The notes beneath the pieces were generated by a model that saw only the letters and a list, made by a program, of their open reading frames with translations, searched no databases and was not told the origin of the DNA. From IMG/VR virus record IMGVR_UViG_3300029319_005559: a DNA stretch of 20,000 nucleotides. The stretch is one strand, 5' to 3'. Source of the stretch: an uncultured virus (IMG/VR IMGVR_UViG_3300029319_005559). Taxonomy: Duplodnaviria; Heunggongvirae; Uroviricota; Caudoviricetes. The translations under genes were made by a program, and so were the position numbers. Shown piece after piece: positions 1,551 through 8,190 of this stretch; the first letter of the stretch is position 1; each line of letters starts with the position of its first letter.

Positions 1551-1793
1551 ATGAAAAATTCAACTAATAACTTAACTACTAAAAGATTTGTAATAAGAAA
1601 ATCTTTAATCGGTGAAAACAAAGTAATAACTTTCACTAACAAAAAAGACATTACATTCACTTATGATCACGATGTAATTTACTCAACATTTCAAGAAAAG
1701 TTTGAAAGTATGCCATGTTTTCAAGAGTATGGTTCTTACACAAACTCTAATACAGTACCAAAATTCTGTAGAGAATTAAGTGAAATATCTTAA
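1551..1793 (+). CDS. Hypothetical early phage protein (80 aa)
   Basis: ORF track; A-rich leader just after motif copy 2. Confidence 0.8.
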   Translation: MKNSTNNLTTKRFVIRKSLIGENKVITFTNKKDITFTYDHDVIYSTFQEKFESMPCFQEYGSYTNSNTVPKFCRELSEIS

Positions 1794-1947: not shown

Positions 1948-2175
1948 ATGAAAAAACTATTTTTATCAATATCAGCATTGTCACTCATGTCATTCAGTTC
2001 AGTAACTATTTACCAAAACTATTTAATAAGTGAATCAATTAATAACATTCAAGACATGAAAGAGTGGATGCAACAAGATATACTATCAGGTAATATCGAT
2101 GTGGAATTAGGCGAAAACTATGTATATTGGTTAGAGCAAACTGAAGATCAGTTGATCGAGTATGTCACAAACTAA
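1948..2175 (+). CDS. Small exported or membrane-anchored protein (75 aa), paralogue of 3671..3913
   Basis: MKK followed by a hydrophobic N-terminus; shares an I.N...M..W.QQD...G.I......NY pattern with 3671..3913. Confidence 0.8.
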   Translation: MKKLFLSISALSLMSFSSVTIYQNYLISESINNIQDMKEWMQQDILSGNIDVELGENYVYWLEQTEDQLIEYVTN

Positions 2176-3913: not shown

Positions 3914-4505
3914 AAAATGGAGTGACTACATAGATCTTCATAAAAATAGAGATTTTATAATATGTGGCAGAGGTAGGTCATTACAACTTTTAAAAGACAC
4001 TAATTCTATACTTATTGGTGTAAATGACATAGAGAAATATAGATCTGTAGATTATTTAGTTGTAGTTGATAGAATAGCTCAATTTACAAGAGAAAATAGA
4101 CACGAAGAAATATTAAACACTAAATCAAACACTTTCTTTACTCAAATAGATGAGTATGCAGTCGGTTATTCTAATTTCAATTACGATAAAGTATGTAAAA
4201 TAAACATAAAGAATATTAGACAAGATCATCAAATAGATAAAAATATTTGCTACGCAAGTAATAACTCAACATTTATAGCATGTAGCATAGCAATAAATAT
4301 GGGTGCTAGAAATATAGGTATTATAGGTGTAGACATAACAGGTCACAAGAGTTTAGCAAGTGAAAACTCTTTAAAAAAGATAAATAGAGATTATAGTATA
4401 TTAAATAACTTACATAAAATATACAATTTATCACCAATAAGTAAAATAGAAGCATTAGAAAGTATTAGTATTGACGACTTTCACAAATTAAATACGAATG
4501 AGTAA
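3882..4505 (+). CDS. DUF115/MptE-like (Maf / CST-I sialyltransferase-like Rossmann-fold) transferase
   Basis: Motifs IICGRGRSL, IGVND, DYLVVVD and AINMGARNIGIIGVD. The true start may be GTG 3903 or TTG 3906. Confidence 0.65.
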   Translation: MARRRKIVLTKKWSDYIDLHKNRDFIICGRGRSLQLLKDTNSILIGVNDIEKYRSVDYLVVVDRIAQFTRENRHEEILNTKSNTFFTQIDEYAVGYSNFNYDKVCKINIKNIRQDHQIDKNICYASNNSTFIACSIAINMGARNIGIIGVDITGHKSLASENSLKKINRDYSILNNLHKIYNLSPISKIEALESISIDDFHKLNTNE

Positions 4506-4513
4506 AGATAATA
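4482..4513 (+). promoter_or_regulatory. Class I promoter-like motif, copy 4
   Basis: CACAA ATTAAATACG AATGAGTAAA GATAATA. Confidence 0.8.
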
Positions 4514-4518
4514 ATAAC

Positions 4519-4662
4519 ATGAAAACAATTAAATTTTACCCAAGCGATAGGTCACTAATAAGATTAGATGGCAAAATGATTAAAGGTTACAAGTTAAACG
4601 ATGTACCATACGAGAGAAATAGTTGGTTCAATTATAAAGGTTTAACATTTGTAATCGACTAA
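4519..4662 (+). CDS. Hypothetical protein (47 aa)
   Basis: MKTIKFYPSDRSLIRLDGKMIKGYKLNDVPYERNSWFNYKGLTFVID*; ATG 6 nt after motif copy 4. Confidence 0.65.
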   Translation: MKTIKFYPSDRSLIRLDGKMIKGYKLNDVPYERNSWFNYKGLTFVID

Positions 4663-4724
4663 TCCACGATCGCAGGCTTTTATGGCGGACGCGAGTGGAG
4701 GCTGAGTGACGGCTCAGCTTGGAT
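4662..4724 (+). ncRNA. GC-rich structured RNA (two hairpins) upstream of the tRNA-like pair
   Basis: TCCAC(4663-67)/GTGGA(4695-99) with inner TCGC/GCGA; GGCTGAGT(4700-07)-GACG-GCTCAGCT(4712-19); alternative ATCCA(4662-66)/TGGAT(4720-24) pairing. Confidence 0.5.
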
Positions 4725-4725
4725 A

Positions 4726-4800
4726 GCGAGGTTCGGTGTCATATGTAAAAGTGATGAACTGTTCTAGACATGAGAGGTTCGACTCCTCTCTCTCGCTCTA
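4726..4800 (+). ncRNA. tRNA-like element A (acceptor stem and T-arm; no canonical D or anticodon arm)
   Basis: T-arm AGAGG-TTCGACT-CCTCT (4773-4789); GCGAGG (4726-31) pairs with TCTCGC (4791-96); central GTGTC/GACAT helix; ends T-CTA. Confidence 0.65.
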
Positions 4801-4803
4801 AAT

Positions 4804-4883
4804 GGGCACGAAAGTTGGAAGGGTGCAACCGCGGCGTAAGCAAAGGTGCACAAACGGTGGTTCGATCCCACCCGTGTCCACTA
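4804..4883 (+). ncRNA. tRNA-like element B with alanine identity (G3-U70, A73) and no anticodon arm
   Basis: Acceptor GGGCACG (4804-10)/CGTGTCC (4873-79), discriminator A4880 followed by CTA; T-arm GGTGG-TTCGATC-CCACC (4856-4872); no 5-bp stem/7-nt loop anticodon arm. Confidence 0.75.
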
Positions 4884-4884
4884 A

Positions 4885-4916
4885 CACAAATTAAATACGA
4901 ATACTAATAGATAATA
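4885..4916 (+). promoter_or_regulatory. Class I promoter-like motif, copy 5
   Basis: CACAA ATTAAATACG AATACTAATA GATAATA; begins immediately after element B. Confidence 0.8.
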
Positions 4917-4921
4917 CATAC

Positions 4922-5362
4922 ATGAAATGTACACATCACATACCAAAAGCAAGACTAGCACTAGGTTATACTACCTGTGTTCAATGCTCAACAGAGCAAA
5001 AGCTTGGCTGTATCGATACTATTAACCACAAAACAGGCAATAGTATACAAGTTATGTCACGTGAAGATGCCGATCAGGCAAGTAAATTACTTCAGCGTGC
5101 AGGTTATTCTACGTTACGTGCGTTATCAGGTAAATCTGCAATGCCAAAACGTAAAATACTTCATGGTTGTAGGCTAACTGACGTAGGCAGTGACGAGCTT
5201 TATCAACAAGTCGGCAAGCAGTACATGGATTATCTTGACGTAGACAAAGACATTGCGCAGCGCTATCTCGATCGAGCGCTCAACAATTTTGAAATATCTC
5301 AGTTGCAGTACAACAAGATCAAGCAAATTTGTTACAGACTAAATACGATCACTAGTAGATAA
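4922..5362 (+). CDS. Protein with an N-terminal TraR/DksA-like zinc finger (146 aa)
   Basis: CTHHIPKARLALGYTTCVQCS resembles the IPxxRL...CxxC half of the DksA/TraR C4 finger. Confidence 0.6.
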   Translation: MKCTHHIPKARLALGYTTCVQCSTEQKLGCIDTINHKTGNSIQVMSREDADQASKLLQRAGYSTLRALSGKSAMPKRKILHGCRLTDVGSDELYQQVGKQYMDYLDVDKDIAQRYLDRALNNFEISQLQYNKIKQICYRLNTITSR

Positions 5363-5364
5363 TA
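5333..5364 (+). promoter_or_regulatory. Class I promoter-like motif, copy 6
   Basis: TACAG ACTAAATACG ATCACTAGTA GATAATA. Confidence 0.8.
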
Positions 5365-6053: not shown

Positions 6054-6375
6054 AACAATGAACGAACTTAGGCAAGAGAAAACTTATGGTTATAAAGCAC
6101 CATTTGGTATGACTCACAAAGAAGAAAAACCAAAAGGTTATTCAGAGATTGATATAGAAACTACTAAGGACCTGATATTCAACAGCTTAAAGAATAAGTT
6201 TTACGATATGATATTTCAAGCAGTATGCGATGAAATGTCAAAGCATGAAGTGTTTCAAGAAGAAACTTATTTTACACCGCAAGGTATGGATGAGTTTGAA
6301 GATCAATGGTTTGAGTTTTATCACGAGCATCATGGTGATATACTAGGTTCTATAATGAAAGATTTTACAAACTAA
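6037..6375 (+). CDS. Hypothetical protein with an acidic C-terminal half (up to 112 aa; start may be 6043)
   Basis: ORF track; stop lies inside motif copy 7. Confidence 0.8.
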   Translation: MQMKTRTMNELRQEKTYGYKAPFGMTHKEEKPKGYSEIDIETTKDLIFNSLKNKFYDMIFQAVCDEMSKHEVFQEETYFTPQGMDEFEDQWFEFYHEHHGDILGSIMKDFTN

Positions 6376-6397
6376 ATACGAACACTAATAGATAATA
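6366..6397 (+). promoter_or_regulatory. Class I promoter-like motif, copy 7
   Basis: TACAA ACTAAATACG AACACTAATA GATAATA. Confidence 0.85.
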
Positions 6398-7999: not shown

Positions 8000-8188
8000 T
8001 TTATAAAATTTACTACAATCTGGATAAGTCAAAACCTGGCAATACCATTTTGGATGGTAGGTCACATCCACTTATCAACCAATGTATACCAAGATTTGTA
8101 TGAAATAATAACTTCCATAGGATTAAATCTTGTAGTTTTTGCAGGTTTTATCATGGATTACAAACTAAATACGAAAGACAATGGATAA
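7991..8188 (+). CDS. Small membrane protein (65 aa; start moved from 7916 to ATG 7991)
   Basis: MKRFIKFTTIWISQNLAIPFWMVGHIHL...IITSIGLNLVVFAGFIMDY; the upstream extension falls in the structured RNA island. Confidence 0.7.
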   Translation: MKRFIKFTTIWISQNLAIPFWMVGHIHLSTNVYQDLYEIITSIGLNLVVFAGFIMDYKLNTKDNG

Positions 8189-8190
8189 TA
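8159..8190 (+). promoter_or_regulatory. Class I promoter-like motif, copy 8
   Basis: TACAA ACTAAATACG AAAGACAATG GATAATA. Confidence 0.8.

What the first reader, a model, noticed from the sequence alone, without database searches (positions are those of the whole stretch)
4804..4883. Anticodon-less tRNA-like RNA with the complete alanine identity set (resembles an isolated tmRNA tRNA-like domain)
Seen: a full 7-bp acceptor with G1-C72, G2-C71, G3-U70 and A73, plus a canonical T-arm. The middle cannot form an anticodon arm. It folds either as a 12-nt stemless loop (AAAGTTGGAAGG), an irregular helix GTGCA-A-CC/GG-TGCAC capped by GC-GTAA-GC and a 4-nt linker, or as a D-like stem GTTG/CAAC with no anticodon stem. 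Established: AlaRS needs G3-U70/A73 and ignores the anticodon, and tmRNA has an Ala acceptor, a stemless D-loop and a helix replacing the anticodon arm. Inference: this may be a chargeable non-decoding RNA. Possible roles are a decoy for SmpB/EF-Tu or for tRNA-targeting defence toxins, or an aminoacyl donor. The encoded end is A-CTA, so CCA would have to be added after processing.
Basis: partly seen in the sequence, partly recalled or inferred. Interest (0 to 1): 0.78.

Follow-up and report, generated by a model that had tools for sequence, protein, structure and literature searches.

The report
Phage mini-tmRNA: anticodon-less alanine tRNA mimic
A marine phage carries a small conserved RNA gene that looks like only the tRNA-like head of the bacterial ribosome-rescue RNA (tmRNA), a rare known kind of element that probably lets the phage interfere with or hijack the host's ribosome-rescue system.

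Summary
Window 4804-4883 encodes an 80-nt RNA with a 7-bp acceptor stem (G3:U70), A73, a canonical T-arm, a stemless 12-nt D-loop-like linker and a GNRA-capped hairpin where the anticodon arm would be.

It is not a decayed tRNA. In 8 distinct homologues from phage contigs all 152 of 152 pair cells pair, and 9 of 19 pairs show compensatory changes. G3:U70, A73 and the CUA trailer are invariant while acceptor pairs 4-6 covary.

ARAGORN and Rfam at gathering score call nothing. Rfam's tmRNA model aligns end-to-end to relatives, skipping its whole middle, at 32-36 bits (gathering score 47). The window copy scores 13.7 bits.

The A-CUA end is normal: a Flavobacteriaceae tmRNA gene and genuine phage tRNA genes beside E2 relatives end the same way.

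The closest known element is the "TLD-only" tmRNA of mycobacteriophage DS6A. A similar molecule is reported to inhibit tmRNA, perhaps by titrating SmpB.

The most likely function is a matured, alanylated tmRNA-head mimic acting on host trans-translation. This is inferred; expression, charging and SmpB binding are untested.

Its D-loop lacks the canonical tmRNA motif, so I file it as a new variant of a known kind. A second anticodon-less tRNA-like RNA (E1) lies just upstream.

The parts
4804..4810 (+). E2 acceptor stem, 5' strand GGGCACG (G1, G2, G3)
   Evidence: Pairs 7 of 7 with 4873-4879. Pairs 4-6 covary and G3:U70 is invariant in 8 of 8 sequences.
4811..4822 (+). Stemless D-loop-like linker AAAGTTGGAAGG with a GG dinucleotide
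   Evidence: No conserved pairing. The family consensus is A-W-A-N-GG-U-N-A-G. Rfam tmRNA model positions 8-17 are only partly aligned.
4823..4851 (+). Irregular hairpin H1 in place of the anticodon arm: GTGCA-A-CC / 3x3 internal loop / GC-GTAA-GC / GG-TGCAC, with a GNRA loop
   Evidence: MFE fold. The outer stem covaries (4 of 5 pairs change on both sides). The same module occurs in other frames and alone.
4852..4855 (+). Linker AAAC before the T-arm
   Evidence: (A)AAC is kept across the family.
4856..4872 (+). T-arm GGTGG-TTCGATC-CCACC
   Evidence: Matches tmRNA-family T-arm consensus. The stem covaries: 2 of 5 pairs change on both sides.
4873..4879 (+). Acceptor stem, 3' strand CGTGTCC (U70 at 4877)
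4880..4883 (+). Discriminator A73 plus the CTA trailer that stands where CCA would
   Evidence: Invariant in 8 of 8 sequences. A Flavobacteriaceae tmRNA gene has the same end, as do phage tRNA-Met and tRNA-Gln genes.
4700..4800 (+). E1: a second anticodon-less tRNA-like RNA. It has a 5' hairpin at 4700-4719, acceptor GCGAGG at 4726-4731 pairing within CTCTCGC at 4790-4796, a variable hairpin, T-arm at 4772-4790, and T + CTA at 4797-4800.
   Evidence: 17 distinct homologues with a covarying 5' hairpin and a hypervariable insert. No Rfam or ARAGORN call.
4893..4915 (+). Repeated promoter-like motif AAATACGA-N9-GATAAT, directly 3' of E2 and 6 nt before the ATG at 4922
   Evidence: 8 matches in the window against 0.64 expected. 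The motif is conserved upstream of genes in related contigs.
4490..4512 (+). The same motif ahead of the small ORF that precedes E1 and E2; probable start of the unit that carries E1 and E2
   Evidence: No terminator-like site in 4300-5100.
4520..4662 (+). Small conserved ORF (MKTIKFYPSD...) upstream of E1. The listed ORF starts at 4498; relatives start at the ATG at 4520.
   Evidence: No family hit.
4922..5362 (+). 146-aa Cys-rich ORF downstream; its homologues lie next to E1 or E2 in relatives
   Evidence: 413 homologues, all unnamed and without Pfam domains.

Best explanation
E2 (4804-4883) is a functional phage gene for a small anticodon-less RNA built like the tRNA-like domain (TLD) of tmRNA. 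It has a 7-bp acceptor stem with the AlaRS determinants G3:U70 and A73, a T-arm, a D-loop without a stem, and a hairpin where tmRNA helix 2 or a tRNA anticodon arm would emerge. There is no mRNA-like domain. Shown: the structure, its conservation and covariation, the invariance of the alanine identity set, and the fact that it ends like host-type tmRNA and tRNA genes. Inferred mechanism: it is transcribed with the early small-ORF unit. RNase P and a 3' tRNA-processing nuclease cut it out, and the CCA-adding enzyme supplies CCA, as for host tRNA and tmRNA genes that also lack CCA. AlaRS then charges it. As a TLD-only tmRNA mimic it competes with host tmRNA for SmpB, EF-Tu and stalled ribosomes. 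The outcome would be either blocked tagging and trans-translation, or ribosome rescue without a degradation tag.
For: Structure and selection: 152 of 152 pair cells pair, 9 of 19 pairs have compensatory changes, G3:U70 is present in 8 of 8, and 0 of 500 shuffles reach the covariation score. The acceptor and T-arm were not part of the search key that found 6 of the 8 sequences (searched the hairpin only).

Size of the family: the covariance model R1 scores at least 40 bits on 27 distinct sequences. ARAGORN-called tRNA-Ala genes in the same scan score at most 38.8 bits.

tmRNA likeness: RF00023 aligns to positions 1-374 with the middle skipped. Scores are 36, 36, 34.4 and 32.4 bits for L047, L050, L048 and L045 (alignment) and 13.7 bits for the window copy. 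It is the best model within the tRNA/tmRNA clan.

CUA end: the Psychroflexus tmRNA gene ends ..CGACTCC-A-CTA, and only 2 of 31 tRNA genes listed from that genome end in an encoded CCA. Phage tRNA-Met and tRNA-Gln genes beside E2 relatives end A-CTA.

Wider class: among the first 112 IMG/VR hits to a ..UCC-A-CUA tRNA-type 3' end, 32 are ARAGORN tmRNAs, 18 are tRNAs and 35 (32 distinct) are short elements of 130 nt or less with a perfect 7-bp acceptor and no call. 26 of the 32 have G3:U70 rather than A3-U70.

Against: No expression, processing, charging or SmpB-binding data exist for this RNA.

Rfam scores are below the gathering score of 47. The window copy's 13.7 bits is lower than what ordinary tRNAs of a Flavobacteriaceae genome reach on the same model (18-24 bits).

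The E2 D-loop (AAAGUUGGAAGG; family A-W-A-N-GG-U-N-A-G) lacks the GGnUUCGAC motif, and its pre-T-arm junction lacks the GGAC motif. Both are seen in full-length phage tmRNAs from the same scan, so SmpB binding is uncertain.

The neighbour E1 has the same anticodon-less architecture but no alanine identity. This hints at a shared function unrelated to trans-translation, such as processing or a scaffold role.

Alignment A1 has only 8 related sequences, and 6 of them were found through the hairpin, so hairpin conservation in A1 is partly circular.

The cited experiment (Mao et al. 2009) could not be read. Its result is known here only through two citing papers, and it found charging dispensable for inhibition, which leaves the conserved G3:U70 not fully explained.
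Confidence: 0.55

Rival explanations
1. E2, like E1, is mainly a tRNA-shaped processing and stability element. RNase P and the 3' tRNA nuclease would cut the polycistronic early transcript at these structures, as in tRNA punctuation. This would release or stabilise flanking mRNAs, or a tRNA-scaffolded hairpin RNA. The alanine identity would be an inherited leftover.
For: Two different anticodon-less tRNA-like frames sit in tandem between ORFs. In 10 of 17 distinct E1 copies and in 3 of 8 E2 sequences the CUA trailer overlaps the next ORF's start (CUAUG), so cleavage after N73 would leave a nearly leaderless mRNA. The inserted hairpins are hypervariable and exchanged between frames. Contigs of RNA libraries from relatives bridge ORF, E1 and the next ORF.
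Against: Processing alone needs no G3:U70 wobble or A73. Yet these are invariant in 8 of 8 sequences while adjacent pairs covary, and G:U is preferred over A-U in 26 of 32 short relatives. This reading is also compatible with the best explanation rather than exclusive of it.
Confidence: 0.2
2. E2 is a chargeable alanine carrier or a sink for AlaRS and EF-Tu that does not work through SmpB. Possible roles are as an aminoacyl donor for a non-ribosomal transferase, or as a modulator of alanyl-tRNA supply.
For: The identity set is conserved, while the D-loop departs from the tmRNA consensus that full-length phage tmRNAs keep.
Against: No aminoacyl-transferase-like gene was recognised among 26 + 23 ORFs scanned in the window. 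No precedent was found in the literature searches run.
Confidence: 0.1
3. E2 is a decoy for host defence enzymes that recognise the acceptor/T-arm part of tRNA or tmRNA.
For: Phages are known to carry tRNAs that counter tRNA-targeting defences (bioRxiv 10.1101/2023.03.15.532788, search listing and abstract only). The frame is conserved while the rest varies.
Against: The element lacks the anticodon loop that known anticodon nucleases cut. There is no linked evidence in this window.
Confidence: 0.07
4. E2 is a decayed tRNA-Ala pseudogene, or a remnant of a host ssrA attachment site.
For: tmRNA genes are common integration sites, and prophages carry ssrA fragments (PMC9004378 and PMC11915505, passages read). 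A half copy of E2 (T-arm plus 3' acceptor strand) exists in L049.
Against: All helices are intact and covary. The 5' acceptor strand and D-loop are present, which an attachment site would not need. The 21-nt 3' end has 0 matches in 185,579 species' genomes. No integrase was recognised.
Confidence: 0.03

Closest known systems
TLD-only (CDS-less) tmRNA of mycobacteriophage DS6A (tmRNA Website entry; Hudson et al. 2014, PMC4131195; Nawrocki et al. 2025, PMC11915505; experiment in Mao et al. 2009, not readable here)
   Same: [quoted passage not shown] An alanine-type acceptor end is expected.
   Different: The host phylum differs (Actinobacteria against probably Flavobacteriia). I did not see the DS6A sequence, so no direct alignment was made. 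The E2 D-loop lacks the canonical tmRNA motif. E2 belongs to a family with a hypervariable, exchangeable hairpin and sits next to a second tRNA-like RNA.
CDS-less tmRNAs of jakobid mitochondria and some plastids (about 65 bp forms; PMC11915505, passage read)
   Same: These are tmRNAs reduced to the tRNA-like domain that are still conserved.
   Different: They are organellar, mostly permuted genes, and co-occur with a dedicated SmpB. E2 is a standard-order gene in a virus.
Full-length phage tmRNAs (79 bacteriophage sequences in the tmRNA database, PMC11915505; examples L214, L230, L279)
   Same: They share the acceptor with G3:U70, A73, the T-arm GGUUCGAnnCC, and in these marine contigs the same A-CUA gene end.
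   Different: They carry pseudoknots and a tag ORF (for example GENNYALAA), a GGnUUCGAC D-loop and a GGAC junction. E2 has none of these.
tRNA-Ala
   Same: G3:U70, A73, T-arm and overall length of about 77 nt.
   Different: E2 has no D-stem, no anticodon stem-loop and no anticodon. It is not called by ARAGORN or by RF00005.
Engineered tmRNA TLD constructs and 'tRNA scaffolds' with a hairpin replacing helix 2 or the anticodon arm (recalled from memory, not from a call)
   Same: An acceptor/T-arm frame carrying a foreign hairpin capped by a stable tetraloop, processed and stabilised like a tRNA.
   Different: Those are laboratory designs. E2 and E1 would be natural counterparts.

Membership tests
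tmRNA tRNA-like domain (RF00023; TLD-only form) | 7-bp acceptor stem with G3:U70 | tested here: met
   G:U in 8 of 8 sequences with covarying neighbouring pairs.
tmRNA tRNA-like domain (RF00023; TLD-only form) | Discriminator A73 | tested here: met
   A at 4880, invariant in 8 of 8.
tmRNA tRNA-like domain (RF00023; TLD-only form) | T-arm with a tRNA-type T-loop | tested here: met
   GGTGG-TTCGATC-CCACC. It matches tmRNA-family models locally, and the stem covaries.
tmRNA tRNA-like domain (RF00023; TLD-only form) | D-loop without a D-stem, and a helix instead of an anticodon arm | tested here: met
   The hairpin model is supported and the D-like stem is not. There is no ARAGORN tRNA call.
tmRNA tRNA-like domain (RF00023; TLD-only form) | Canonical D-loop motif (GGnUUCGAC) and GGAC junction before the T-arm | tested here: not met
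   The window has AAAGUUGGAAGG and AAAC. The model's D-loop positions are left unaligned. Full-length phage tmRNAs in the same scan keep both motifs.
tmRNA tRNA-like domain (RF00023; TLD-only form) | Score at or above Rfam's gathering score (47 bits) | tested here: not met
   13.7 bits for the window copy and 32.4-36 bits for four relatives. Ordinary tRNAs reach 18-24 bits.
tmRNA tRNA-like domain (RF00023; TLD-only form) | Alanylation by AlaRS and binding of SmpB and EF-Tu | not testable with these tools
   This needs biochemistry.
Full-length tmRNA | mRNA-like domain with a resume codon, tag ORF and pseudoknots | tested here: not met
   Only 29 nt lie between the D-loop and the junction. ARAGORN finds no tmRNA.
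Canonical tRNA-Ala (RF00005) | Cloverleaf with a D-arm and a 7-nt anticodon loop carrying an Ala anticodon | tested here: not met
   No ARAGORN call. No RF00005 match even at E up to 10.
Bacterial Y RNA (YrlA) and other Rfam tRNA-like families | Match to the family model | tested here: not met
   No such match among 4227 families at E up to 10.
Phage attachment site derived from host ssrA or a tRNA gene | Identity with the 3' end of a host gene, and an integrase | tested here: not met
   0 matches of the 21-nt 3' end in genome contigs. No integrase family among the ORFs scanned. Only this 20-kb window was scanned for proteins.

The most novel reading that the evidence does not exclude
E1 and E2 are two frames of a natural 'tRNA-scaffold' RNA system of marine Flavobacteriia-type phages. 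Conserved tRNA-shaped frames would be cut out and stabilised by the host tRNA maturation machinery. One frame is of alanine/tmRNA type and is delivered to AlaRS, EF-Tu and ribosomes; the other has unknown identity. Both display hypervariable hairpin modules (H1, M2 and others) that are exchanged horizontally and also exist free-standing. These modules would be the evolving business ends, for example protein decoys or aptamers in an arms race with the host. On this reading the many short TLD-like genes in uncultivated phages form a widespread, overlooked anti-trans-translation or counter-defence class.
Probability: 0.2. Interest if true: 0.8.

Novelty: new variant of a known kind. Interest (0 to 1): 0.55.

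Why it matters
TLD-only tmRNAs are known from one cultured phage and a few organelles. The tmRNA database lists 9 "standard, no CDS" sequences (PMC11915505).

This window shows a conserved, covarying family of such genes in marine phages related to Cellulophaga phages. Standard tools (ARAGORN, Rfam at gathering score) miss it. A capped scan suggests that dozens more short TLD-like genes exist in uncultivated phages.

If these RNAs are charged and act on SmpB and ribosomes, interference with (or tagless use of) trans-translation would be a common phage strategy rather than a curiosity. It would then be directly testable with a small RNA gene. The invariant G3:U70 against covarying neighbouring pairs is a clean natural experiment on AlaRS identity.

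Tried and rejected
- **Phage genome BLAST.** A blastn of 4600-4960 against 50,697 phage genomes found no match.
- **Own genome.** No whole genome is held for the window.
- **Exact 3' end in IMG/VR.** The exact 25-nt 3' end had 0 hits.
- **Close relatives via the neighbour gene.** Eleven related loci were found through the downstream ORF. By a GGTTCGA scan and the R1 model (L002 was not included in that call), none has E2 and two have E1.
- **Same acceptor plus GGTTCGA pattern.** This gave 7 hits in unrelated contigs. None was called at that position by ARAGORN. They score 23.5-39 bits with R1, and I did not count them as family members.
- **Genome-contig scan for the hairpin core.** It returned 120 or more hits, but all listed ones are chance matches inside GC-rich coding sequence without the flanking stem. 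12 of them were checked with Rfam and gave nothing.
- **RNA libraries.** Four seawater metatranscriptome runs (contigs only) hold relatives of the flanking ORFs and of E1, but nothing over 4818-4854. Those relatives go from E1 straight into the next ORF. This says nothing about E2 expression.
- **Cultured relatives.** Cellulophaga phage phi10:1, Tenacibaculum phage JQ and a Flavobacterium phage have only R1 matches of 22 bits or less. Those checked with ARAGORN are ordinary tRNA genes.
- **Neighbouring proteins.** PHROGs and Pfam give no tRNA- or tmRNA-related function. The 146-aa neighbour has 413 unnamed homologues.
- **Earlier findings of this scan.** None.
- **Mao et al. 2009.** Not held.
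- **CoCoNuT preprint (PMC10542128, passages read).** It mentions SmpB-like domains in defence proteins but makes no link to phage TLDs, so I did not use it.
- **Small-peptide gene reading.** Rejected.

Full report
**What is there**

The window is a piece of a phage genome. It holds densely packed + strand ORFs for an ATP-dependent DNA ligase, a DNA-binding protein, a sigma-like factor, an Erf-type annealing protein, an exonuclease, a primase/helicase, a thymidylate synthase, MazG and ribonucleotide reductase. No whole genome is held for it. The primase/helicase is closest, at 42% identity, to that of Cellulophaga phage phi10:1. Tenacibaculum and Flavobacterium phages follow. The host is therefore probably a marine member of the Flavobacteriia; this is an inference.

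The finding lies in a 259-nt gap (4663-4921) between a small conserved ORF and a 146-aa Cys-rich ORF.

**The observation**

Positions 4804-4883 read:

GGGCACG / AAAGTTGGAAGG / GTGCAACCGCGGCGTAAGCAAAGGTGCAC / AAAC / GGTGG-TTCGATC-CCACC / CGTGTCC / A / CTA

The free-energy fold gives the acceptor stem, the long irregular hairpin with a GUAA loop, and the T-arm. The z-score of about -2 is weak on its own.

ARAGORN finds no tRNA or tmRNA in the window, and Rfam finds nothing at gathering score. The 30-codon ORF that happens to run through the element is broken by a stop at codon 10 in a homologue.

**Homologues**

- Close relatives of the phage, found through the downstream ORF, mostly lack the element.
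- A metagenome scan for the 3' end found two identical copies of this region (L037, L043). It also found one diverged homologue (L039) with the same frame and a different, longer hairpin.
- A viral-contig scan for the hairpin alone found the same kind of element in six further distinct contigs (L044, which equals L051, and L045, L047, L049, L050, L052). This search key did not include the acceptor stem or the T-arm.

In the alignment of 8 distinct sequences (A1) every one of 152 pair cells forms a standard pair, and 9 of 19 pairs show changes on both sides. The covariation score of 0.43 is reached by 0 of 500 shuffles. When the 3' partners are slid by 1-3 columns, only 36-50% of cells pair.

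Within the acceptor stem:
- Pair 4-69 is C-G or A-U.
- Pair 5-68 is G-C or A-U.
- Pair 6-67 is U-A or C-G.
- G1-C72, G2-C71, G3:U70, G7-C66, A73 and the CUA trailer never change.

A wobble pair that stays fixed while its neighbours are replaced by compensatory changes is the signature expected if AlaRS recognition is under selection. That link to AlaRS rests on established knowledge, not on a test here.

Caveats:
- There are only eight related sequences.
- The shuffle control is not a probability.
- Conservation of the hairpin in A1 is partly a product of the search key.

**A wider family**

A covariance model built from A1 (R1) scores 93 bits on the window copy. It scores at least 40 bits on 27 distinct sequences in all. 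ARAGORN-called tRNA-Ala genes in the same material score at most 38.8 bits.

These relatives were found only through a degenerate 3'-end pattern. They share the frame GGG(A/C)GUG-A(U/A)A-GGU-AG ... (A)AAC-T-arm-acceptor-A-CUA but carry quite different hairpins of about 30 to 110 nt. The frame is conserved and the hairpin is hypervariable.

Sorting those 112 gave:

| Class | Count |
|---|---|
| ARAGORN tmRNAs with plausible tags | 32 |
| tRNAs | 18 |
| Short elements (130 nt or less) with a perfect 7-bp acceptor and no ARAGORN call | 35 (32 distinct) |
| 5' acceptor strand further away | 6 |
| No perfect partner found (some for lack of flank, or with one mismatch) | 21 |

The pattern fixed U70. 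Of the 32 distinct short elements, 26 have G3 (a wobble pair) and 6 have A3.

**What it resembles**

Rfam's tmRNA model aligns to E2 relatives from model position 1 to 374, matching both ends and skipping the whole middle. Scores are 36, 36, 34.4 and 32.4 bits (alignment). It is the best model of the tRNA/tmRNA clan for them.

The limits of this evidence are clear:
- The gathering score is 47 bits.
- Ordinary tRNAs of a Flavobacteriaceae genome reach 18-24 bits on the same model.
- The window copy reaches only 13.7 bits on RF00023 and 19.9 bits on the permuted-tmRNA model.
- Full-length phage tmRNAs from the same scan have a GGnUUCGAC D-loop and a GGAC junction. E2 has AAAGUUGGAAGG and AAAC.
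- Other short elements (for example L212, L224, L227, L270, L271) do keep the canonical D-loop.

There is thus a series running from canonical TLD-only genes to the E2 type.

**The CUA end**

The tmRNA gene of a Psychroflexus genome ends ...CGACTCC-A-CTA. Of the 31 tRNA genes listed from that genome, only 2 end in an encoded CCA, and most of the rest end in a C followed by A or T. Genuine tRNA-Met and tRNA-Gln genes lying beside E2 relatives in L049 and L050 end A-CTA as well.

The missing CCA is therefore the rule in this setting. It points to maturation by the ordinary pathway: cleavage after the discriminator or trimming, then CCA addition. This is an inference.

**What is known**

- Hudson et al. 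2014 (PMC4131195, passages read) list "Mycobacterium phage DS6A (TLD only)". [quoted passage not shown] 2009.
- Nawrocki et al. 2025 (PMC11915505, passages read) count 9 "standard, no CDS" sequences. They mention CDS-less forms of about 65 bp in plastids and tag-less mitochondrial tmRNAs.
- I could not read Mao et al..
- Six full-text searches turned up no description of TLD-only tmRNA genes in marine or Flavobacteriia phages, or of their abundance in viral metagenomes. This is only as good as those searches.

**Most likely mechanism**

*Shown:* a conserved, structured, non-coding tRNA-shaped gene with the alanine identity set, without anticodon or tag, and with the gene end of host-type tRNA and tmRNA genes.

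*Inferred:*
- It is transcribed from the promoter-like motif at 4490-4512 together with the small ORF and E1. No terminator-like site lies in 4300-5100, and the next copy of the motif follows at 4893-4915.
- The tRNA maturation enzymes release it, and it is CCA-tailed and alanylated.
- It acts as a tmRNA-head mimic on SmpB, EF-Tu and stalled ribosomes. The result would be either inhibition of tagging (the DS6A-type result) or ribosome rescue without a degradation tag.

I put this at 0.55. The main rival (0.2) is that E2 and E1 are chiefly processing and stability frames. The two readings are not exclusive.

**The neighbour and the modules**

Just upstream (4700-4800) lies E1, a second anticodon-less tRNA-like RNA with 17 distinct homologues. 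Its features are:
- a 5' hairpin whose stem covaries around a YGACGG loop;
- an acceptor GCGAGG/CUCUCGC, that is G3-C70 and U73, so not the alanine type;
- a 6-bp T-stem;
- an invariant linker;
- a hairpin of 0-70 nt in the anticodon-arm position.

Its CUA trailer overlaps the next ORF's AUG in 10 of the 17 distinct copies.

The E2 hairpin H1 also occurs inside E1 (L039, L046) and alone after an ORF stop (L045, L048). Another module, M2, stands 5' of E2 (L045), 3' of E2 (L047) or inside the E2 frame (L048). This shuffling is unexplained and is the basis of my most novel reading.

**Verdict**

The element is a new variant of a known but rare kind: a phage TLD-only tmRNA. Standard detectors miss it, and it belongs to what looks like a sizeable family in uncultivated marine phages. 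Function remains inferred.

Noticed in passing
window 4700-4800: E1, a second anticodon-less tRNA-like RNA directly 5' of the finding. It has a covarying 5' hairpin with a YGACGG loop, a non-alanine acceptor (G3-C70, U73), a 6-bp T-stem and a hypervariable hairpin insert. There are 17 distinct homologues, and no Rfam or ARAGORN call.
   Followed up: partly
window 4490-4512, 4893-4915, 5341-5363, 6374-6396, 8167-8189 (plus 3 weaker sites): The repeated motif AAATACGA-N9-GATAAT occurs 8 times against 0.64 expected. At the sites I checked it ends a few bases (6-8) before an ATG, and it is conserved in related contigs. It may be a phage promoter that gives near-leaderless mRNAs.
   Followed up: partly
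L039 (E1), L046 (E1), L045:1501-1523 and L048:1501-1523 (alone): The E2 hairpin module H1 (CAACCGCGGCGNAAGCAAAGGTG, with a GNRA loop) is also found inside the E1 frame and free-standing just after an ORF stop codon.
   Followed up: partly
L045 about 2000-2075 (-), L047 about 1560-1640 (+), L048:1030-1153 (+): A structured module of about 65 nt (CCTAACAGTAAATCGACG...GTCGTAGTGACAG) with a covarying inner hairpin stands 5' of E2, 3' of E2, or inside the E2 frame in place of the usual hairpin.
   Followed up: no
L049 and L050 (5' of E2), L045 (3' of the free H1): Another conserved structured module is closed by a covarying stem, with the motifs ACGAGTAG ... CACATAA(G/C)TGAAT(T/A)G. It has no Rfam match at E up to 0.1.
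   Followed up: no
L028:1530-1575, L039 (reverse strand, between E1 and E2): A hairpin whose loop is G-rich (GGATTGGGGTTGGTTGG) lies between E1 and the next element.
   Followed up: no
L001, L003-L006, L008, L011 (about 760-1220): A third, very short tRNA-like element (E3). It has the T-arm TGAGA-TTCGATT-TCTCA, the 3' strand CTC(A/G)GTT and then A, and it runs straight into the promoter-like motif.
   Followed up: no
L049:1304-1368 (-): A half copy of E2 (T-arm plus 3' acceptor strand plus A-CTA) lies immediately 5' of a genuine tRNA-Met gene, about 130 nt after the full E2.
   Followed up: no
L212-L323 (IMG/VR loci): There are many short genes (72-94 nt) with a G3:U70 acceptor, a T-arm and a single hairpin. 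Several have the canonical tmRNA D-loop (GGUUUCGAC or GGAUUCGA). None is called by ARAGORN. TLD-only tmRNA genes seem common in uncultivated phages.
   Followed up: partly
L215, L218, L219, L239, L253, L290: A separate family of 104-115-nt tRNA-like elements has the acceptor GGATAAG/CTTATCC (A3-U70), ends A-CTA, and is not called by ARAGORN.
   Followed up: no
G011 (Psychroflexus genome), loci L182-L211 and L324: Only 2 of 31 tRNA genes listed end in an encoded CCA. Most of the others end N73-C followed by A or T, and the tmRNA gene ends A-CTA.
   Followed up: partly
window 4507-4800 against runs X1-X4: Contigs from seawater RNA libraries, 90-99% like the window, bridge the small ORF, E1 and the next ORF of related phages. 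In these relatives E1 is followed directly by TGAATAATC...ATG.
   Followed up: partly
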